Positions 1-64,000 of a stretch of DNA of 64,000 bases are shown piece after piece. The notes under the pieces are model-generated. The model ran no database searches, was not told the origin of the DNA, and saw only the letters and a program-made list of their open reading frames with translations. The stretch lies in the NCBI GenBank assembly GCA_951406725.2, contig OX597825.1, positions 83,390,001 through 83,454,000 of the forward strand, in the 5' to 3' direction. The position numbers and the translations under genes were made by a program. Every line of letters starts with the position of its first letter. Within the stretch, counting starts at the first letter, position 1. This DNA comes from Octopus vulgaris. Lineage: Eukaryota.

Positions 1-479
1 AATACAAGTTGGACATTTCGCTTCTCTTCTTGGTTCATTACTTCCATTATCTCTCCTCATAGTCACATCATTCATTATTGATACTGTATATGACATGGTG
101 CTTTATTCCATACGTTTGGGGAATATCCATTGGATATTTTTACTAGTCTAATGTACATTAACGATATAATTATTTCCTAGTCTATTCTGATGTAATTCCA
201 AAATAAATCGTATACTGACAGTCACTGAATGGGTAACAAACAGCAGCAATTACATTCGCAAATACCCTGGACTCTTCTCAATTACATGCAGTGTCTATAT
301 CATGCTGCAATGGTGCACAGCGACAGACGTATATCTTACCTCTGCTGCTCTCTCGTTAATACAGTAAATTCTGGTATTTTCATTTACAGAACGCTGCATC
401 CTTTTCTCTCTTCTACTTATCTCTCCCTCTCACTTCTCCCTTTGTCCATTCTATTTCTGCTATAATGACTTCTGTGGAA

Positions 480-11949: not shown

Positions 11950-12339
11950 CAAACACAGAGAGGACAAACAAGGACAGACGAACGGATCTAGTAGATTACA
12001 TCGACCCCAGTGCGTAACTGGTACTAAATTTATCGACCCCAAAAGGATGAAAGGCAAAGTTGACCTCGCCGGAATTTGAACTCAGAACGTAGCGTCAGAC
12101 GAAGTGCCTATTTCTTTACTACCCACGAGGGGCTAAACACAGAGAGGACAAACAAGGACAGACGAACAGATCTAGTAGATTACATCGACCCCAGTGCCTA
12201 ACTAGTACTTAATTTATCGACCCCGAAAGGATGAACGGCAAAGTTGACCTCGGGGGAATTTGAACTCTGAACGTAGCGACGGACGAAATACGGCTACGCA
12301 TTTCGCCTGGCGTGCTAAAGATTCTGCCAGCTCGCCGCC
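11950..12339 (-). mobile_element. Family A SINE tandem dimer
   Basis: Two units joined at GACGAAGTGCC|TATTTCTTT (~12109). Confidence 0.85.
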
Positions 12340-14255: not shown

Positions 14256-14873
14256 TTGAATTGTTTATTTTAAACCGCTTCTTGTTGCAATTATAGGCTC
14301 ACGAGTGATAAATAATAGGAAAACAATAGGAATTTGAAGTCAGTAAAAACATATAAAAAAAAGCGTGATTTAAGATAAACAAAAATAATTTCTTAAAAGG
14401 GTCGAAAGTTTTCTATGTTCCAAATATTTTGCGGGATTGAATAAGTGTTTATGCAAGGGGAAAACAACCCTATTCATAAAGAAGTCAATAATTTAACAGG
14501 TCATAAAAACATTAATGCTTTATTTCTTCTATAATGACCATATTTTGCCTAAATACGTGGTCGTGCTTGAATTATTTATTTTAAACCGCTTCTTTTTGCA
14601 ATTATAGGCTCACGAGTGGCAAATAATAGGAAAAAATTAGGGATTTGAAATCAGTAAAAAATATAAATAGGTGACTTAAGATAAACAAAAAAACTTTCTT
14701 AAAAGAGTCGAAAGTTTTGTAAGTCCCAAATATTTTGCGGGATTGAATAAGTGTTTATGCAAAGAGGTAAAAACCTATTCATAAATTACACAACAATTTA
14801 ACAGGTCAGAAAGAACATTGATGCATTGTTTCTTCTATAATGACCATATTTTGCCTAAATAGGAGTTCGTGCT
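14256..14873 (+). repeat. Tandem duplication, two ~310-bp units
   Basis: 14256-14566 and 14567-14873 align throughout (e.g. CCAAATATTTTGCGGGATTGAATAAGTGTTTATGCAA occurs twice). Confidence 0.9.
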
Positions 14874-15315: not shown

Positions 15316-16066
15316 GGCGGCGAGCTGGCAGAAGCGTTAGCACGCCGGGCGAAATGCTTAGTGGTATTTCGGCTGCCGCTACGTTCTGAGTTCAAATTCC
15401 ACCGAGATCGACTTTCCCTTTCATCCATTCGGGGTCGATTAAATAAGTACCAGTTTCGCACTGGGGTCGATATAACCGACTTAATCCCTTTGTCTGTCTT
15501 TGTTTGTCCCCTCTGTGTGTAGTCCCTTGTGGGTAGTAAAGAAATAGGTATTTCTGAGTTCAAATTACGCCGAGGTCTACTTTGCCTTTCATCCTTTCGC
15601 GGTCAATTAAATAAGTACCATTTACGCACTGGGGTCGATATAATCGACTTAATCCCTTTGTCTGTCCTTGTTTGTCCACTCTGTGTTTAATCCCTTGTGG
15701 GTAGTAAAGAAATAGGTATTTCTGAGTTCAAATTCCGCTGAGGTATACTTTGCCTTTCATCCTTTCGCGGTCAATTAAATAAGTACCAGTTTCGCACTGC
15801 GGTCGATATAATAGAGTTAATCCGTTTGTCTGTTCTTGTTTGTCCTCCCTGTGTTTAGCCCCTTGTAGGTAGTAAAGAAATAGGTATTTCCTCTGCCGTT
15901 ACGTTCTGAGTTCGAATTGCGCCGAGGTTGACTTTGCCTTTCATCCTTTCACGGTCGATTAAATAAGTACCAGTTGCGCACTAGAGTCAATGTAAACGAC
16001 TTAATCTTTTTGTCTGTAAGTGTTTGTCCCTTCTGTGTTTATCCCCCTGTGGGCAATAAAGAAATA
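15316..16066 (+). mobile_element. Family A SINE tandem tetramer within one 17-bp TSD
   Basis: Junctions GAAATA|GGTATTTC at ~15546, ~15714 and ~15882; TSD AATATTCATT(G/T)TCAGTA at 15298-15314 and 16067-16083. Confidence 0.9.
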
Positions 16067-27320: not shown

Positions 27321-28876
27321 GAAGCCCTGGTTAACACTAAGCAAGCAGATACGAAATTCCAGCGCGCCCACCTCGTATTTTATTTAATATTCCTCCATCT
27401 TACACTCACTCTTCTGATGTTGTGCTCTTCTGCTTGTAAACAATAGAAGTGCGATTTGAGGTAGATTTAGCTGGTATTTCTAATAATTCACGTAGTAACT
27501 CTAGAAATTCGTGCAAATACTCGCTCGGTGTCGGAAGCCTTAATGACTCCGTTGGTAAATCCGTGTAACTAGAACATGAAACAAGTTTAAAAAAAACGAA
27601 CTATAGTCTACATATAAAGTATGCATGGAGAAGCATTGACAAGTCAGGAAATAAGTCTTTATGAACGATGAGTCTTGGAACGAGTCTAGTTATAAATACC
27701 AGCGAACAACAACACTTTATCCCTGGACATAATACTGTGGAAATTAATCAACGTGTCCTGAGCCATGCATCTGAAACCCAGATGTATAGGTTCCAGTGTT
27801 AAGTGTTTATTTATCGTCTGTCAGTGTTACAGAAGATGGTTCGACTCTGATTGACAGCTCTGCCTTTTACAGTCTGAAGAATATTCACCTAGACTGTTAT
27901 ATGCTATTTATAGCTGATTTCTCTACGAGACATGTCGTTAGTAAGGAACTAATTAAAAGTTTTAGTGTTTAATTCAGGCAAAAATAACTGGTTATAGTTT
28001 TTAAGAAAAACTGTAAAGGAAGAATAATATCTGAGGATAGAGTTGTTGCTGATGTTGTTGTTCCTTAACTGAAGCCATACCGGAGATGCACATCTACAAT
28101 GAATTGTACTCATCATACTGGTTCAATTTGTCTAAAATGTCCTTCTTTAGATGGTTTCGTAAAGTCAGAAAGGTGAAGTTGTTATATAAGTTATAGATGG
28201 TATACGAGAAAGCAAAATAAAGAGTGAATATAACAATAGTAAGCGGCTAGGAACCAGAGAGGGAAAGAGAAGAGAAAGCATAAACCTCCTCCGGTAATAG
28301 CTTATGGTCCGTCCCAAATCAAATTATCTTAAATATAATTATTTCATTAATATTTGTACACAACATTTAAACATTTTATACAAATATTACTCTACTAGAT
28401 CTCAAACGAATTAAAACAGCGTTGAATACAAATTTCTATGTATACAAAATACGAAGAGATGCGAACAAAAAATACTTAGTTATTATATGCAAATGTGTAT
28501 ATGAAAATGAGTGCAGCGATAAAAATCTATTTTATTAAAAGATAATTTAAATTTAGTAAATGCTAATATTTATCTCCATGGATTTCTTTCTCATTTCTCA
28601 GTAATGACTACAAGAATTACTGGAATTGCATATTAGCTTGTTGTGTCTCACAAAAAAAAAAATTATTGACAAAAGAGAGCGTGCGACATAAGAGCTGCGA
28701 GCATGTTTCTCTTTCTGCAGTTCTTTTTAGGTATTCACGTGTATTTTTTTTTTCATGAAATAATCAATTCTCCCAGTAATTTAGGTATTTAAAAAAAATA
28801 CGCGTTTGTGAAGGTGTGTGGGGGGTTGTGTGTTTATAAATTTAAATTTTTTTATGGATATTTAGAATAATATAAT

Positions 28877-28950
<74 letters not shown>

Positions 28951-29005
28951 ATCATGTTATTCTAAATATCCATATTACCAATATAAATATATATATATAT
29001 ATATA

Positions 29006-29054
29006 GAAAAAGTCAAGATAGAAAATGCTAAAATAATTTCATAAAAACCTTTCA
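29006..29054 (-). mobile_element. Solo 3'-terminal fragment of the PLE family at 61420, embedded in (TA)n
   Basis: AAGTCAA.ATAGAAAATGCTAAAATAATTT.ATA...AAC.TTTCA matches 61428-61474. Confidence 0.7.
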
Positions 29055-29261
29055 TATATATATATATATTCACATATATTAATGAATAGATATTATGTTA
29101 TATTATATTATATTATATTATTCTTAAATGTATTACCAATTTAAATCGACTTATTTTCAAATTAAATTCAAATATATATTGTTTTTTAATGATAATAAAG
29201 TATTGTATACAATTATATATATATATGTTTATATATGTATGTGCATTCATAATCACACAAA

Positions 29262-58859: not shown

Positions 58860-59462
58860 ATATTCTTCTCTACTCTAGGCACAAGGCCCGAAAGTTTGGG
58901 GGAGGGGACTGTTGATAATATCGACTCCAGTACGTAACTGGTACTTAATTGATCGACCACGAAATGATGACATCGACAGAATTTGGATTCAGAACGTAAA
59001 GACATGAAATACTGCTACGCATTTCGCCCGGGTTGCTAACGTTTTTTATTTATTTATTGCCCGTAAGGAGCTAAACATAGAGGAGACAAACAAGGAGGGA
59101 AAAACGGATTAAGTCGATTACATCGACCTCAGTGAGTCACTGATACTTAATTTATCGACTCCGAAAGGATGAAAGGCAAAGTCAACCTCGGCGGTATTTG
59201 ACTTCAGAACGTAGCGGCAGACGAAATACCTATTTCTTTACTACCCACAAGGGGCTAAACACAGAGAGGACAAACAAGGACAGACAAACGGATTAAGTCG
59301 ATTACATCGACCCCAGTGCGTAACTGGTACTTATCTAATCGACCCCGAAAGGATGAAGGGCAAAGTTGACCTCTGGGGAATTTAAACTCAGAACGTAGTA
59401 GCAGACGAAATACCGCTAAGCATTTCGACTGGCGTGCTAACGTTTCTGCCAGTTCACTGCCT
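58860..59462 (-). mobile_element. Family A SINE cluster (one copy plus a tandem dimer)
   Basis: Three cores; dimer junction GACGAAATACC|TATTTCTTT at ~59230. Confidence 0.85.
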
Positions 59463-61207: not shown

Positions 61208-61352
61208 GCAGAGAGACAGACAGGCAGACAGAGGAGAGAGAGATTGGTTCATACATAGATAGACGTGCCTCTAGATACATATACGATTGAGTAGACAAAC
61301 AAGAGTAGGGCACACCATCGGGAGTTAGATGTATGGTTTAAAGCAGTATATA

Positions 61353-61423
<71 letters not shown>

Positions 61424-61472
61424 AAACAAGTCAAAAATAGAAAATGCTAAAATAATTTTATAGTGAACATTT

Positions 61473-61510
61473 CAGTACCGGTTTCGATCATTTTGAGACC
61501 TTTTCAACTG
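61473..61510 (-). ncRNA. Minimal type I hammerhead ribozyme (U3-A8 variant) in the PLE 3' UTR
   Basis: Minus strand reads CAG-TTGAAAA-GGTC-tcaaaat-GATC-GAAA-CCGG-TA-CTG: stem I CAG/CTG, stem II GGTC/GATC (one G-U), palindromic stem III ACCGGT, UA cleavage site. Confidence 0.75.
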
Positions 61511-61867
61511 TAACGATTAAATAATTAAATTTAGAAAAATTAGAAGAAAAGTTTTTTTAAAAGAATATTTCTATAGTAGTGTTCAGATTTAAGTGGCATT
61601 CTGCCTTTCTCTGACTCCCTTGTTTGCACTTGTGTGTCGGAGGTCGTTGTGAGTTCTTGGAAGGGTAGTAGAGGAAGAAGGCTGGTGGGGAAAGGGGGAT
61701 GGGAGAATCTGGGAGTGCCCTGATGGTCGTATTTTGAATGGTCAGTGGCGGCTGGCAGTCTCAGTTCAATTCAGGAGAATATTTATATTGACAGGCTTGT
61801 TTATAGAATTAGCGTAGGTGTTATACTAAAAAACATTAGTGACAAAGTTAAGGGGTAGGGGGTGGAG

Positions 61868-62150
61868 AAGTAGAAGAAGAAGAAGAAGAAGAAGAAGAAG
61901 AAGAAGAAGAAGAAGAAGAGAAGGAGAAGATGACGATGATGGTGGTGGTGGTGATGATTATGACGACGATGATGATGATAATGATGATGATGAAGAAGAA
62001 GAAGAAGAAGAAGAAGAAGAAGAAGAAGAAGAAGAAGAAGAAGAGGAGAAGGAGAAGATGGTGGTGATGATGGTGGTGATGATGATGACGACGATGATGA
62101 TGATAATGATGATGATGAAGAAGAAGAGGAAGAAGAAGAAGAAGAAAAAA
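61868..62150. repeat. (GAA)/(GAT)/(GGT) compound repeat inside the PLE 3' UTR
   Basis: Directly visible; lies between the ORF stop and the hammerhead. Confidence 0.9.
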
Positions 62151-62276: not shown

Positions 62277-64000
62277 TTAATTGTTTGTCGTAGACCCGTT
62301 TAGAAGTGGCTTGTATTTTGTAATAAAGAGATTTTCTTTACTTATTCGTTGTCTCGAGGTTGTATCGTCCCTAAATTGGTAGAGGGGGAAAATTCTGAAG
62401 TTTGGTGTTTTTTTGTTGGCGCAAGTATCTATGTGTTGGCTAAAAGCTATTTTTCTGTTTTGGGGAATTTTTATCTGGGATCTGTGCAGGGCCATTCGTT
62501 TACGCAAACCATTTTTTGTTTGGCCTATGTACTGCTCTTGACACCCGGAGCAGGTTAGTGAGTATATTAGGTTCTCCGAAGCACATGTGAAGTTGCTTTT
62601 CACTGTAAACCGTTGTCCCTGCTTGAAGGAGAACTCTGATCCCTCAATTAGATAGTCGCATATCCCGCAATTGGGTCTTCCACATTTTTTTACTGTCGGC
62701 TTCTGTGTTGAGGAGTGAATTCGGGCTTGTGTAAGGAGACTTTTCATGGATCTAGGCTGCCTTTTGCTTTTTATGATCGTGTGTGTTTGGAGGATTGTGT
62801 TCATTCTGTGGTCTTTTTTTAGGAGGGGTATGTTGTGGAGGATGGTGTCGAAGGCTTCGTTATTGAGAGGGTTGTGTGTGGAGATGTATGGTAAGGCTTT
62901 TGGTTGTAAGTTTTTCTTTGATTTGGGATGTCTCAGTTCCTTGATGTTAAGTTGAAGGGCACGTTGAATGCACTTGTCAATAAGTGAAGGTGGATAGTTC
63001 CTGGTGATTAGGGTATCTTTTAGTTCTTGTAGTCGTGTGTCTCTGGTGTTTGCGTTAGAGACTATAGTGCATATCCTTTTTGCTAGATTGAAGGGGATAT
63101 TCATCCTGGTGTGTCTGGGGTGGCATGAATTGAATGGAAGATATTGCTTAGAGTCTGTAGGCTTATAGTATATGTCTGTTTCTATTATATTATTAGCTTT
63201 CTTAATGAGGATATCGAGGAAGGGGAGTTGTTGTTGGCTATATTCCATCGTGAATTGGATGTTTACGTCCAGTCCGTTTAAAATTTTCTGGAATTCTATG
63301 AGTTTTTCTATATTTTTATGCCAAAGGATGAAACAGTCATCTAGATATCTCTTCCAGTTGTTTTCTATGTAGATGGAGAAAGGGCTGCCATATCTTTCTA
63401 GAACCTTACGATACAGACTGATCTCTAGGTATCCTATGACTAGGTTGGCAAAGGAGGGGGCAATTCGTGTACCCATCGCAGTCCCCGATTTTTGTCGATA
63501 GAAGTTGTCATTGAAGGCGAAGAAGTTATTTTCCAGGATGAATTTGACCCCTTCTATCACAAATTCTTTTTTGATGCGGTGTGGTAGTTCGTTGGCGTGA
63601 TTCTCTAGCCAGAATTGGATTGCCTCTAGTCCTAGGTTGTGGGGGATATTGGAGTAGAGGTTGACTACATCGAAGGATACCAGTATGGTGTTTTTGTTTA
63701 TAGTATTCGGTAGGTGATTGAGCATATCTAAGTCGTCCCTTATATAGCTTTTGACATGTTTGAGGAGTGGTTTTAACAGGGTGTCTAAAAAGTTACTGAG
63801 GCGGTGGGTTTCGCATGCGGGACCTGCTATTATGGGTCTCAATTTGAGGTCATTAGGATTAGGGACTTTAATTATTTTGTCTGTAGCTATCTTGCATGCG
63901 TTGCTTATTTTTTCACTTTTGTGGATCTTAGGTATACCGTAGAATTGGCTAGTTTTACTTGTGAAATTGGTCATATAATCATATTCGTTGTCGGTGAGCC
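62277..64000 (-). CDS. Penelope-like element polyprotein: reverse transcriptase + Cys-rich linker + GIY-YIG endonuclease (5' part lies beyond the window)
   Basis: 565-aa ORF whose frame stays open to the window edge (LTDNEYDY precedes the annotated Met). PLE RT motifs: FYGIPKIHK, LRPII, SFDVVNLYSNIP, GTAMGTRIAPSFANL, WKRYLDDCF, LPFLDILI, YLPFNSCHP. Linker CGRPNCGIC. GIY-YIG: NLIYSLTCSGCQEQYIGQT...RMALH...E...LN. Confidence 0.96.
   Translation of the reverse strand, partial: LTDNEYDYMTNFTSKTSQFYGIPKIHKSEKISNACKIATDKIIKVPNPNDLKLRPIIAGPACETHRLSNFLDTLLKPLLKHVKSYIRDDLDMLNHLPNTINKNTILVSFDVVNLYSNIPHNLGLEAIQFWLENHANELPHRIKKEFVIEGVKFILENNFFAFNDNFYRQKSGTAMGTRIAPSFANLVIGYLEISLYRKVLERYGSPFSIYIENNWKRYLDDCFILWHKNIEKLIEFQKILNGLDVNIQFTMEYSQQQLPFLDILIKKANNIIETDIYYKPTDSKQYLPFNSCHPRHTRMNIPFNLAKRICTIVSNANTRDTRLQELKDTLITRNYPPSLIDKCIQRALQLNIKELRHPKSKKNLQPKALPYISTHNPLNNEAFDTILHNIPLLKKDHRMNTILQTHTIIKSKRQPRSMKSLLTQARIHSSTQKPTVKKCGRPNCGICDYLIEGSEFSFKQGQRFTVKSNFTCASENLIYSLTCSGCQEQYIGQTKNGLRKRMALHRSQIKIPQNRKIAFSQHIDTCANKKTPNFRIFPLYQFRDDTTSRQRISKENLFITKYKPLLNGSTTNN

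What the first reader, a model, noticed from the sequence alone, without database searches (positions are those of the whole stretch)
29006..29054. Solo PLE fragment whose boundary coincides with the predicted ribozyme cleavage site
Seen: this 49-bp insert in (TA)n matches the terminal part of the intact PLE (61420-61474) and stops at ...TTTCA. In the intact element, predicted cleavage (minus strand CCGG-UA^CUGAAAUG) leaves a 3' product corresponding to plus-strand ...CATTTCAG, within 1 nt of that boundary. Inference: the insert may be the reverse-transcribed 3' cleavage product, a genomic fossil showing the variant hammerhead was active in vivo. One copy alone could be a chance truncation.
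Basis: partly seen in the sequence, partly recalled or inferred. Interest (0 to 1): 0.75.

Follow-up and report, generated by a model that had tools for sequence, protein, structure and literature searches.

The report
Penelope fragment ending near ribozyme cut
This 49-base scrap of a very common jumping gene stops one base short of where the element's built-in RNA scissors are predicted to cut; about 2 in 100 sampled sister copies stop there, roughly three times the background, which likely records occasional cutting in living cells, but this single scrap is more likely an ordinary cut-short copy.

Summary
Observation confirmed. 29006-29054 is the 3' end of a Neptune-like Penelope element (PLE; 4,263 exact matches to a 21-mer), lying in (TA)n. 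It stops 1 nt short of the predicted cut (61475|61476) of a minimal U3-A8 hammerhead. It belongs to a sister subfamily, and the 'intact' element is 5'-truncated with a private stop.

There is no dominant peak at the cut: 7 of 329 events stop at 0..+2 (2.1%), against 72 of 329 at about +175 nt, a likely transcription start. The cut-site class still exceeds background (P=0.003 local, 0.02 wide). It includes copies that switch at the cut into antisense 18S rRNA, into the element's ORF1, or into fold-backs, as expected if reverse transcriptase ran off a cleaved RNA. Among (TA)n-joined ends like this one the excess is not significant (6 of 35, P=0.17).

Verdict: an ordinary truncated retrocopy with about 35% odds of being a cleavage product. 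Family-wide, a small ribozyme-defined class is about 60% likely. Cleavage itself was not tested.

The parts
29006..29054 (-). Solo 49-bp copy of the PLE 3' terminus (sister subfamily B); its 5' edge is at -1/-2 from the predicted hammerhead cut
28988..29005 (.). (TA)n target tract at the insert's 3'-end junction
29055..29069 (.). (TA)n tract at the insert's 5' junction; 1-nt microhomology (A) with the insert; no target-site duplication can be called
61347..61419 (.). (TA)n target tract at the 3' end of the long PLE copy
61420..61475 (-). PLE segment from the predicted cut to the main 3' end (56 nt), the homolog of the insert
61465..61515 (-). Predicted minimal type I hammerhead: U3-A8 core, 4-bp helix II, palindromic helix III (CCGG), helix I of 3+4 bp; predicted cut between 61476 and 61475
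   Evidence: 84% of cells paired in 14 copies; activity untested
61644..61656 (-). Main cluster of 5' ends in the family (about 230 nt from the 3' end); likely capped transcription start of the pLTR
   Evidence: searches (44 termini; 72 of 329 events at +168..+190), extra C in 6 of 25 vs 2 of 40 junctions
61866..62146 (.). GAA/GAT microsatellite block inside the element's 3' UTR
62277..64000 (-). RT + linker CX4CX2C + C-terminal GIY-YIG frame (573 aa inside the window; the element continues to about window-equivalent 65,400, 5'-truncated, with a private stop outside the window)

Best explanation
The insert is the last 49 bases of a very abundant Penelope-like retrotransposon lying in a (TA)n tract, most likely an ordinary short copy whose reverse transcription stopped early and was joined to the tract through a one-base overlap. 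Shown: identity to the element end, the flanks, the position 1 nt from the predicted cut, and the family's spread of ends. Inferred mechanism: the element's GIY-YIG endonuclease nicks (TA)n; RT starts internally at the TA tract just before the tail, as shown in vitro for the anole PLE (PMC11167929); it copies towards the RNA's 5' end. Many copies stop near +175 nt (likely the capped start) or run further, and the rest stop at scattered, microhomology-favoured sites. A small class (about 2% of termini, about 3 times background) stops at the predicted hammerhead cut, likely because RT ran off an RNA already cleaved there and then jumped to another RNA, folded back, or was joined to the target. 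My odds for this copy: ordinary early stop about 50%, run-off from cleaved RNA with loss of the terminal G about 35%, later deletion about 15%. Odds that the cut-site class is real and due to cleavage: about 60%.
For: 4,263 exact terminus copies. Ends in the unbiased pool are spread from -14 to beyond +200. (TA)n-joined ends on C1-C11: 6 of 35 in -1..+2 (3.8 expected, P=0.17), while the window -8..-5 holds 9 and +18/+19 holds 4. Main cluster: 72 of 329 events; 44 termini at 61644-61656; extra C at 6 of 25 vs 2 of 40 junctions, P=0.047. For the minor class: 7 of 329 events at 0..+2; P=0.0026 against +3..+47 (24 events), P=0.019 against +3..+164 (140 events); the last two searches alone gave 2 of 69, same direction, P=0.085-0.14. 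L389 switches at the cut (-1/0) into about 73 nt of antisense 18S rRNA and then folds back. L104 and L269 are inverted pairs with both arms ending at +1 and 0 around 25-26-nt foreign linkers; L135 and L272 switch into ORF1. The same -1|(TA)n junction recurs at L087 and L173.
Against: Against 'ordinary' for this copy: a random end among -16..+164 would fall in -1..+2 only about 2% of the time, and two more copies share the identical junction, one of them ORF-linked (L173). Against the minor class: the numbers are small; the sample was enlarged in steps after the first look; the 0..+2 window was fixed after seeing the first set; one replication event (L078) was already known; four of the searches used queries ending at the cut and cannot see ends to its left; other 3-nt windows (+146, +154, +158..160) hold as many or more ends, partly artefacts of reference choice. 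0 of 29 other ORF-linked pLTRs start at the cut. The anole study found no RNA reads ending at the cut and no need for cleavage in vitro.
Confidence: 0.6

Rival explanations
1. One reading: this insert is cDNA of a hammerhead-cleaved RNA. RT ran from its internal start to the 5'-OH end, and the last G, which cannot pair with (TA)n, was lost at joining.
For: The end is at -1. The same junction occurs at L087 and L173, and exact 0 junctions at L078 and L158. There is a family-level excess at 0..+2 with RNA-level template switches there. Variable junctions by chance microhomology are what R2 shows when its ribozyme cuts at the element's 5' end (PMC3774820, abstract).
Against: The excess is at 0/+1, not demonstrably at -1. 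(TA)n-joined ends show no significant excess (6 of 35). Cleavage is untested, and such minimal ribozymes cleave poorly and only as dimers in vitro.
Confidence: 0.35
2. No cleavage is involved anywhere: the small excess at 0..+1 is sampling noise, or RT pausing on uncleaved RNA at the base of the palindromic helix III that two ribozymes form together.
For: Only 7 events. P=0.03-0.08 against the wide baseline in sub-analyses. The palindromic helix begins at +2, so a pause would also end near +1 (structure; inference). Comparable local clusters exist elsewhere (-8, -5, +19, +48..50).
Against: 5 of the 7 events end exactly at 0, the highest single-base count between -17 and +50. Jumps to foreign RNA and symmetric fold-backs are typical of template ends (established for non-LTR RTs, recalled) and also occur at the main +175 cluster.
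Confidence: 0.35
3. The insert is the remnant of a longer or inverted-pair insertion that later collapsed by deletion between the internal TTTCA and a downstream (TA)n tract or an inverted 3' terminus, which also reads TTTC followed by (AT)n.
For: TTTCA serves as microhomology in other copies: L074 joins into the inverted tail there, and L034 and L307 join inverted partners there. Inverted pairs are common in the family. The insert has lost or changed 3-4 bases relative to its closest relatives, so it is not very recent.
Against: No other element sequence remains within 61 kb of window. Short (TA)n-joined ends occur at many positions without any sign of a partner.
Confidence: 0.15

Closest known systems
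Neptune-clade Penelope-like elements (C-terminal GIY-YIG, linker Zn-finger; PMC8557442, passages and Introduction read)
   Same: RT then CX4CX2C linker then GIY-YIG with internal CxxC; frequent 5' truncation, partial tandems (pLTR), inverted 5' copies, optional ~30-nt tail (28 of 99 termini), (TA)n targets, hammerhead near the 3' end.
   Different: A ~411-aa ORF1 overlaps the RT-EN frame in the -1 frame (32 of 33 copies). The paper's Fig. 1 legend says ORF1 can be separated by a frameshift in some PLE types, but I could not see which. Clade not tested by phylogeny.
Minimal type I hammerheads of metazoan PLEs, including the U3-A8 variant of Schistosoma Cercyon (PMC4209133, parts 1-2 of 4 read)
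   Same: Located in the pLTR; U3-A8 core covariation; short palindromic helix III implying dimer cleavage.
   Different: No bulged base between positions 9 and 10.1; the 10.1-11.1 pair is G-C in one subfamily and A-U in another. Activity untested here.
Anolis Poseidon PAc (PMC11167929, main text read, supplements not seen)
   Same: Two adjacent 3' ends flanking a tail, consistent with internal RT initiation; most insertions come from RNA not cut at the ribozyme.
   Different: Here both 3' ends fall in internal TA-rich tracts resembling the target, the ORF starts downstream of the ribozyme, and a small class of genomic ends maps to the cut. That paper found no RNA reads ending at the cut.
R2 retrotransposon HDV-like ribozyme (PMC3774820, abstract read)
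   Same: Genomic 5' junctions used as a record of where the element's ribozyme cuts its RNA; junctions vary by chance microhomology.
   Different: In R2 the ribozyme defines the 5' end of full-length copies; here at most about 2% of termini end at the cut and the dominant 5' end lies 175 nt upstream.

Membership tests
EN+ Penelope-like element | RT and C-terminal GIY-YIG endonuclease in one frame | tested here: met
   573-aa frame: RVT_1 34.9 bits (cut-off 29.6); GIY-YIG 21.4 bits, E=3e-4, just under its cut-off of 22.6
EN+ Penelope-like element | pLTRs from partial tandems; inverted 5'-truncated copies | tested here: met
   ORF-linked upstream copies of the terminus; inverted pairs
EN+ Penelope-like element | Optional 30-40-nt 3' tail | tested here: met
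   28 of 99 termini carry it
Neptune clade | CX2-5CxxC linker upstream of GIY-YIG and CxxC between GIY and YIG | tested here: met
   Read from the translation, against the description; the two His of the CCHH motif were not checked by alignment
Neptune clade | RT phylogeny with Neptune references | not tested
   No reference set was fetched; 'Neptune-like' rests on domain layout and (TA)n targeting
Minimal type I hammerhead ribozyme | Conserved core (here U3-A8 variant, GAAA, UH) and helices I-III | tested here: met
   14 copies: 84% of cells paired, 3 pairs with two-sided change; covariation not above shuffles (52 of 500); slid controls 17-38%
Minimal type I hammerhead ribozyme | Match to an Rfam hammerhead model or a stable monomer fold | tested here: inconclusive
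   No hammerhead among the 150 listed of 195 Rfam matches at E<=1; the monomer does not fold as a hammerhead, z about 0 to 0.8, as expected for dimer-type motifs
Minimal type I hammerhead ribozyme | Self-cleavage | not testable with these tools
   Only contigs were available for the runs found
R2-type ribozyme-defined 5' end | Full-length copies begin at the ribozyme cut | tested here: not met
   0 of 29 other ORF-linked upstream pLTRs start at the cut; 7 of 329 events overall
Non-LTR retrozyme | Tandem units each carrying a complete type I hammerhead | tested here: not met
   The insert is single and holds only the 3' strand of helix I (definition)

The most novel reading that the evidence does not exclude
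The minimal U3-A8 hammerhead of this PLE family does cut its own RNA in the germ line. About 2% of the family's termini (some tens of copies by extrapolation), possibly including this insert, are cDNAs of the cleaved RNA, and RT reaching the cut end jumps onto other RNAs such as 18S rRNA. PLE 5' junctions would then be a genome-wide, sequence-only assay of in vivo activity for minimal hammerheads.
Probability: 0.55. Interest if true: 0.65.

Novelty: new member of a known kind. Interest (0 to 1): 0.42.

Why it matters
Whether PLE hammerheads cut in vivo, and why they are kept, is open. The papers read say their function is unclear, and the one in vitro system found cleavage dispensable and no RNA ends at the cut. 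A reproducible excess of genomic 5' ends at the cut would be in vivo evidence of cleavage, while also showing that cleaved RNA is a minor template, not the normal transposition intermediate. My six completed literature searches listed no paper reporting PLE genomic ends at the hammerhead cut; subscription papers, Lunse et al. (not held) and the supplements of PMC11167929 (its Fig. S2 maps genomic ends) were not seen and may bear on this. The single insert is ordinary on its own.

Tried and rejected
A census of all 4,263 termini was not obtained; the result rests on 347 sampled termini plus 35 (TA)n-joined events from the first 100 of 178 rows.

Dropped before the pooled count: copies chosen for a (TA)n junction (one search set, and the junction-favoured hits), the primary hits (query extends past the cut), and the query copy L173/L202. 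Five diverged subfamily-C ends were corrected by eye. Two arms of one locus ending within 3 nt were counted once. Four near-identical C11 copies were counted once in the (TA)n set.

Searches and checks that gave nothing usable: the Rfam scan found no hammerhead; single-strand folding was uninformative; the 60-nt window query returned nothing because its words are too common. No RNA holder was listed. Laying four runs gave contigs only; depth is confounded by subfamily divergence and no loose end at the cut appears among the rows shown (221 not shown), so no verdict. An RNA hairpin as cause of the +175 cluster is not supported (z=-0.9). No stable stem was found behind the slippery heptamer (z=0.2-0.6). 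The sources of the L104 and L269 linkers were not found in fetched loci or in Rfam. Earlier scan notes: none.

My own errors: one search used an anchor shifted by one base (offsets +1, superseded); one search used a mis-indexed structure; the landmark mapping failed (superseded by 78; only its count of 40 other junctions is used); merged some identical long copies. L403 and L404 were fetched but not analysed.

Full report
Setting. The window is G000:C12:83390001-83454000 of a 2.8-Gb animal genome. Positions below are given relative to the predicted ribozyme cut: 0 is the last base of the predicted 3' product (window 61475), negative values stop short of it, and positive values run past it into the element.

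The observation. The 49 bp at 29006-29054 lie between (TA)n tracts and match the end of the element at 61420-61474. A 21-mer shared by both occurs 4,263 times in the genome, the reversed control 0 times. The insert's closest relatives are in a sister subfamily (94-96%). It ends at -1, or -2 if the last A is from the tract.

The element. [quoted passage not shown] The window copy is not intact: it lacks the 5' pLTR and about 470 nt and has a private stop. Tandem copies show the order: 3' UTR, hammerhead, 56 nt, a short internal TA tract (main 3' end), a ~30-nt tail (second 3' end, in 28 of 99 termini), then ORF1. So the RNA does not end where the insert ends. That edge is likely the internal start of reverse transcription, as shown for the anole PLE (PMC11167929, main text).

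The ribozyme. 61465-61515 fits a minimal type I hammerhead with the U3-A8 core variant and a palindromic helix III. In 14 copies 84% of cells pair and 3 pairs change on both sides, though covariation is not above shuffles. The variant and its weak, dimer-dependent cleavage are known (PMC4209133, parts 1-2 of 4; review PMC6765202, passages). Rfam gave no hit among the rows listed and the monomer does not fold this way. Activity is untested.

One search found 33 forward matches among 2,131 forward termini, so this class is about 1.5% of copies. The 35 independent events listed for C1 to part of C11 spread from -17 to +19: 6 lie in -1..+2 (3.8 expected, P=0.17), 9 in -8..-5 and 4 at +18/+19. There is no unique peak at the cut. 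The same -1 junction as the insert's occurs at L087 and L173.

The test on copies not chosen for their ends. The pool holds 347 termini from the first 100 exact matches on C1, from searches whose query ended at or before the cut, and from second copies in fetched loci. Of 329 events that reach the cut, 7 stop at 0..+2 (2.1%, 95% interval 0.9-4.3%), 24 at +3..+47 (P=0.0026) and 140 at +3..+164 (2.6 expected, P=0.019); 5 stop exactly at 0. Without the diverged subfamily the count is 6 of 305 (P=0.005 and 0.03). The last two searches, run with the test written down beforehand, gave 2 of 69 (P=0.085 and 0.14), one of them already known. Caveats: small numbers, stepwise sampling, censoring left of the cut in four searches, and other 3-nt windows (+146, +154, +158..160) with as many ends, partly from reference mismatch. 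None of 29 other ORF-linked upstream pLTRs begins at the cut; only the query L173 does, at -1.

What lies at the cut-site junctions. L389 passes from the terminus at -1/0 into about 73 nt of antisense 18S rRNA, folds back and copies itself (Rfam SSU_rRNA_eukarya E=1e-10, 47.3 bits against a gathering score of 50). L104 and L269 are inverted pairs whose two arms both end at +1 and 0 around 26- and 25-nt foreign linkers. L093 ends at 0 before a short linker and a fold-back. L135 and L272 switch into ORF1 in the same direction. The rRNA case indicates that the junction formed during reverse transcription. That RTs jump when they reach a template's end is recalled knowledge of non-LTR elements, not tested here.

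The main 5' end is elsewhere. 72 of 329 events stop at +168..+190. Mapped on a landmark, 46 termini end at 61644-61656, 2 of which resume after small deletions, and 64 continue (all sets, subfamily C left out). An extra C, as expected from copying a cap, follows 6 of 25 (TA)n-joined ends there against 2 of 40 elsewhere (P=0.047, post hoc). This is likely the pLTR's transcription start (inference; PLE starts lie in the upstream pLTR). These ~230-bp copies contain the whole hammerhead, so uncleaved RNA is the usual template, in line.

Conclusion. The insert is a very short retrocopy of an abundant PLE. For this copy I put ordinary early stop at about 50%, run-off from cleaved RNA at about 35% and later deletion at about 15%. 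Family-wide, a small class of ends at the cut is probably real (about 60% that it reflects cleavage; the rivals are chance and pausing at helix III). It works like the R2 case, where junctions record the ribozyme cut (PMC3774820, abstract), but fails the R2 criterion because only about 2% of copies start there. It is not a retrozyme (bioRxiv 10.64898/2026.07.22.740005, part 1 of 5). Solo pLTRs and microhomology 5' junctions are already described for PLEs (PMC3846280, passages). No report of PLE genomic ends at the hammerhead cut was listed in my searches; unseen supplements and subscription papers may hold one.

Noticed in passing
L154:1568-1631 (about 600 nt beyond the window end, same element); also L213, L222, L230: The family has two ORFs: a ~411-aa ORF1 overlaps the RT-EN frame in the -1 frame, with a U UUU UUA heptamer in the right phase, kept in 32 of 33 copies aligned. 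Candidate programmed -1 frameshift; no stable stem found behind it. Craig et al. Fig. 1 legend mentions ORF1 frameshifts in some PLE types.
   Followed up: partly
window 61644-61656 and homologous sites: Dominant 5' end cluster of the family, with extra C at some junctions; likely capped transcription start giving ~230-bp solo pLTRs.
   Followed up: partly
L213:1657-1700 and L173:1470-1500: Both 3' ends of the family (main end and tail end) fall in internal TA-rich tracts that resemble the (TA)n target, so internal RT priming may use pairing with the nicked target, unlike the non-homologous start reported for the anole element.
   Followed up: no
L389:260-500 (G000:C2:146123959-146124199): Palindromic PLE/18S rRNA chimera: a PLE-made retrocopy of about 73 nt of 18S rRNA.
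   Followed up: yes
window 28853-28974: Host fold-back: 61-nt arms, 97% complementary, centred on a (TA)n tract, ending 31 bp from the insert; about 27 nt of non-repeat sequence is mirrored, and similar sequence recurs at about 29095-29145. May be a target rearrangement.
   Followed up: no
window 11951-12287, 15384-16066, 59047-59414: Tandem 168-184-bp copies of another dispersed repeat; resembles a SINE/RTE-type end of octopus genomes (recalled, not tested).
   Followed up: no
G000:C11:24999247, 25043497, 25064589, 25074382: Four near-identical copies of one truncated terminus within 75 kb, a local segmental duplication.
   Followed up: no
L077, L159, L163 (ends at -8): Several short copies end in a snap-back at the self-complementary A/T-rich stretch just before helix I, a separate truncation hot spot.
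   Followed up: partly
window 14256-14873: Two tandem 306-bp units, 87% alike.
   Followed up: no
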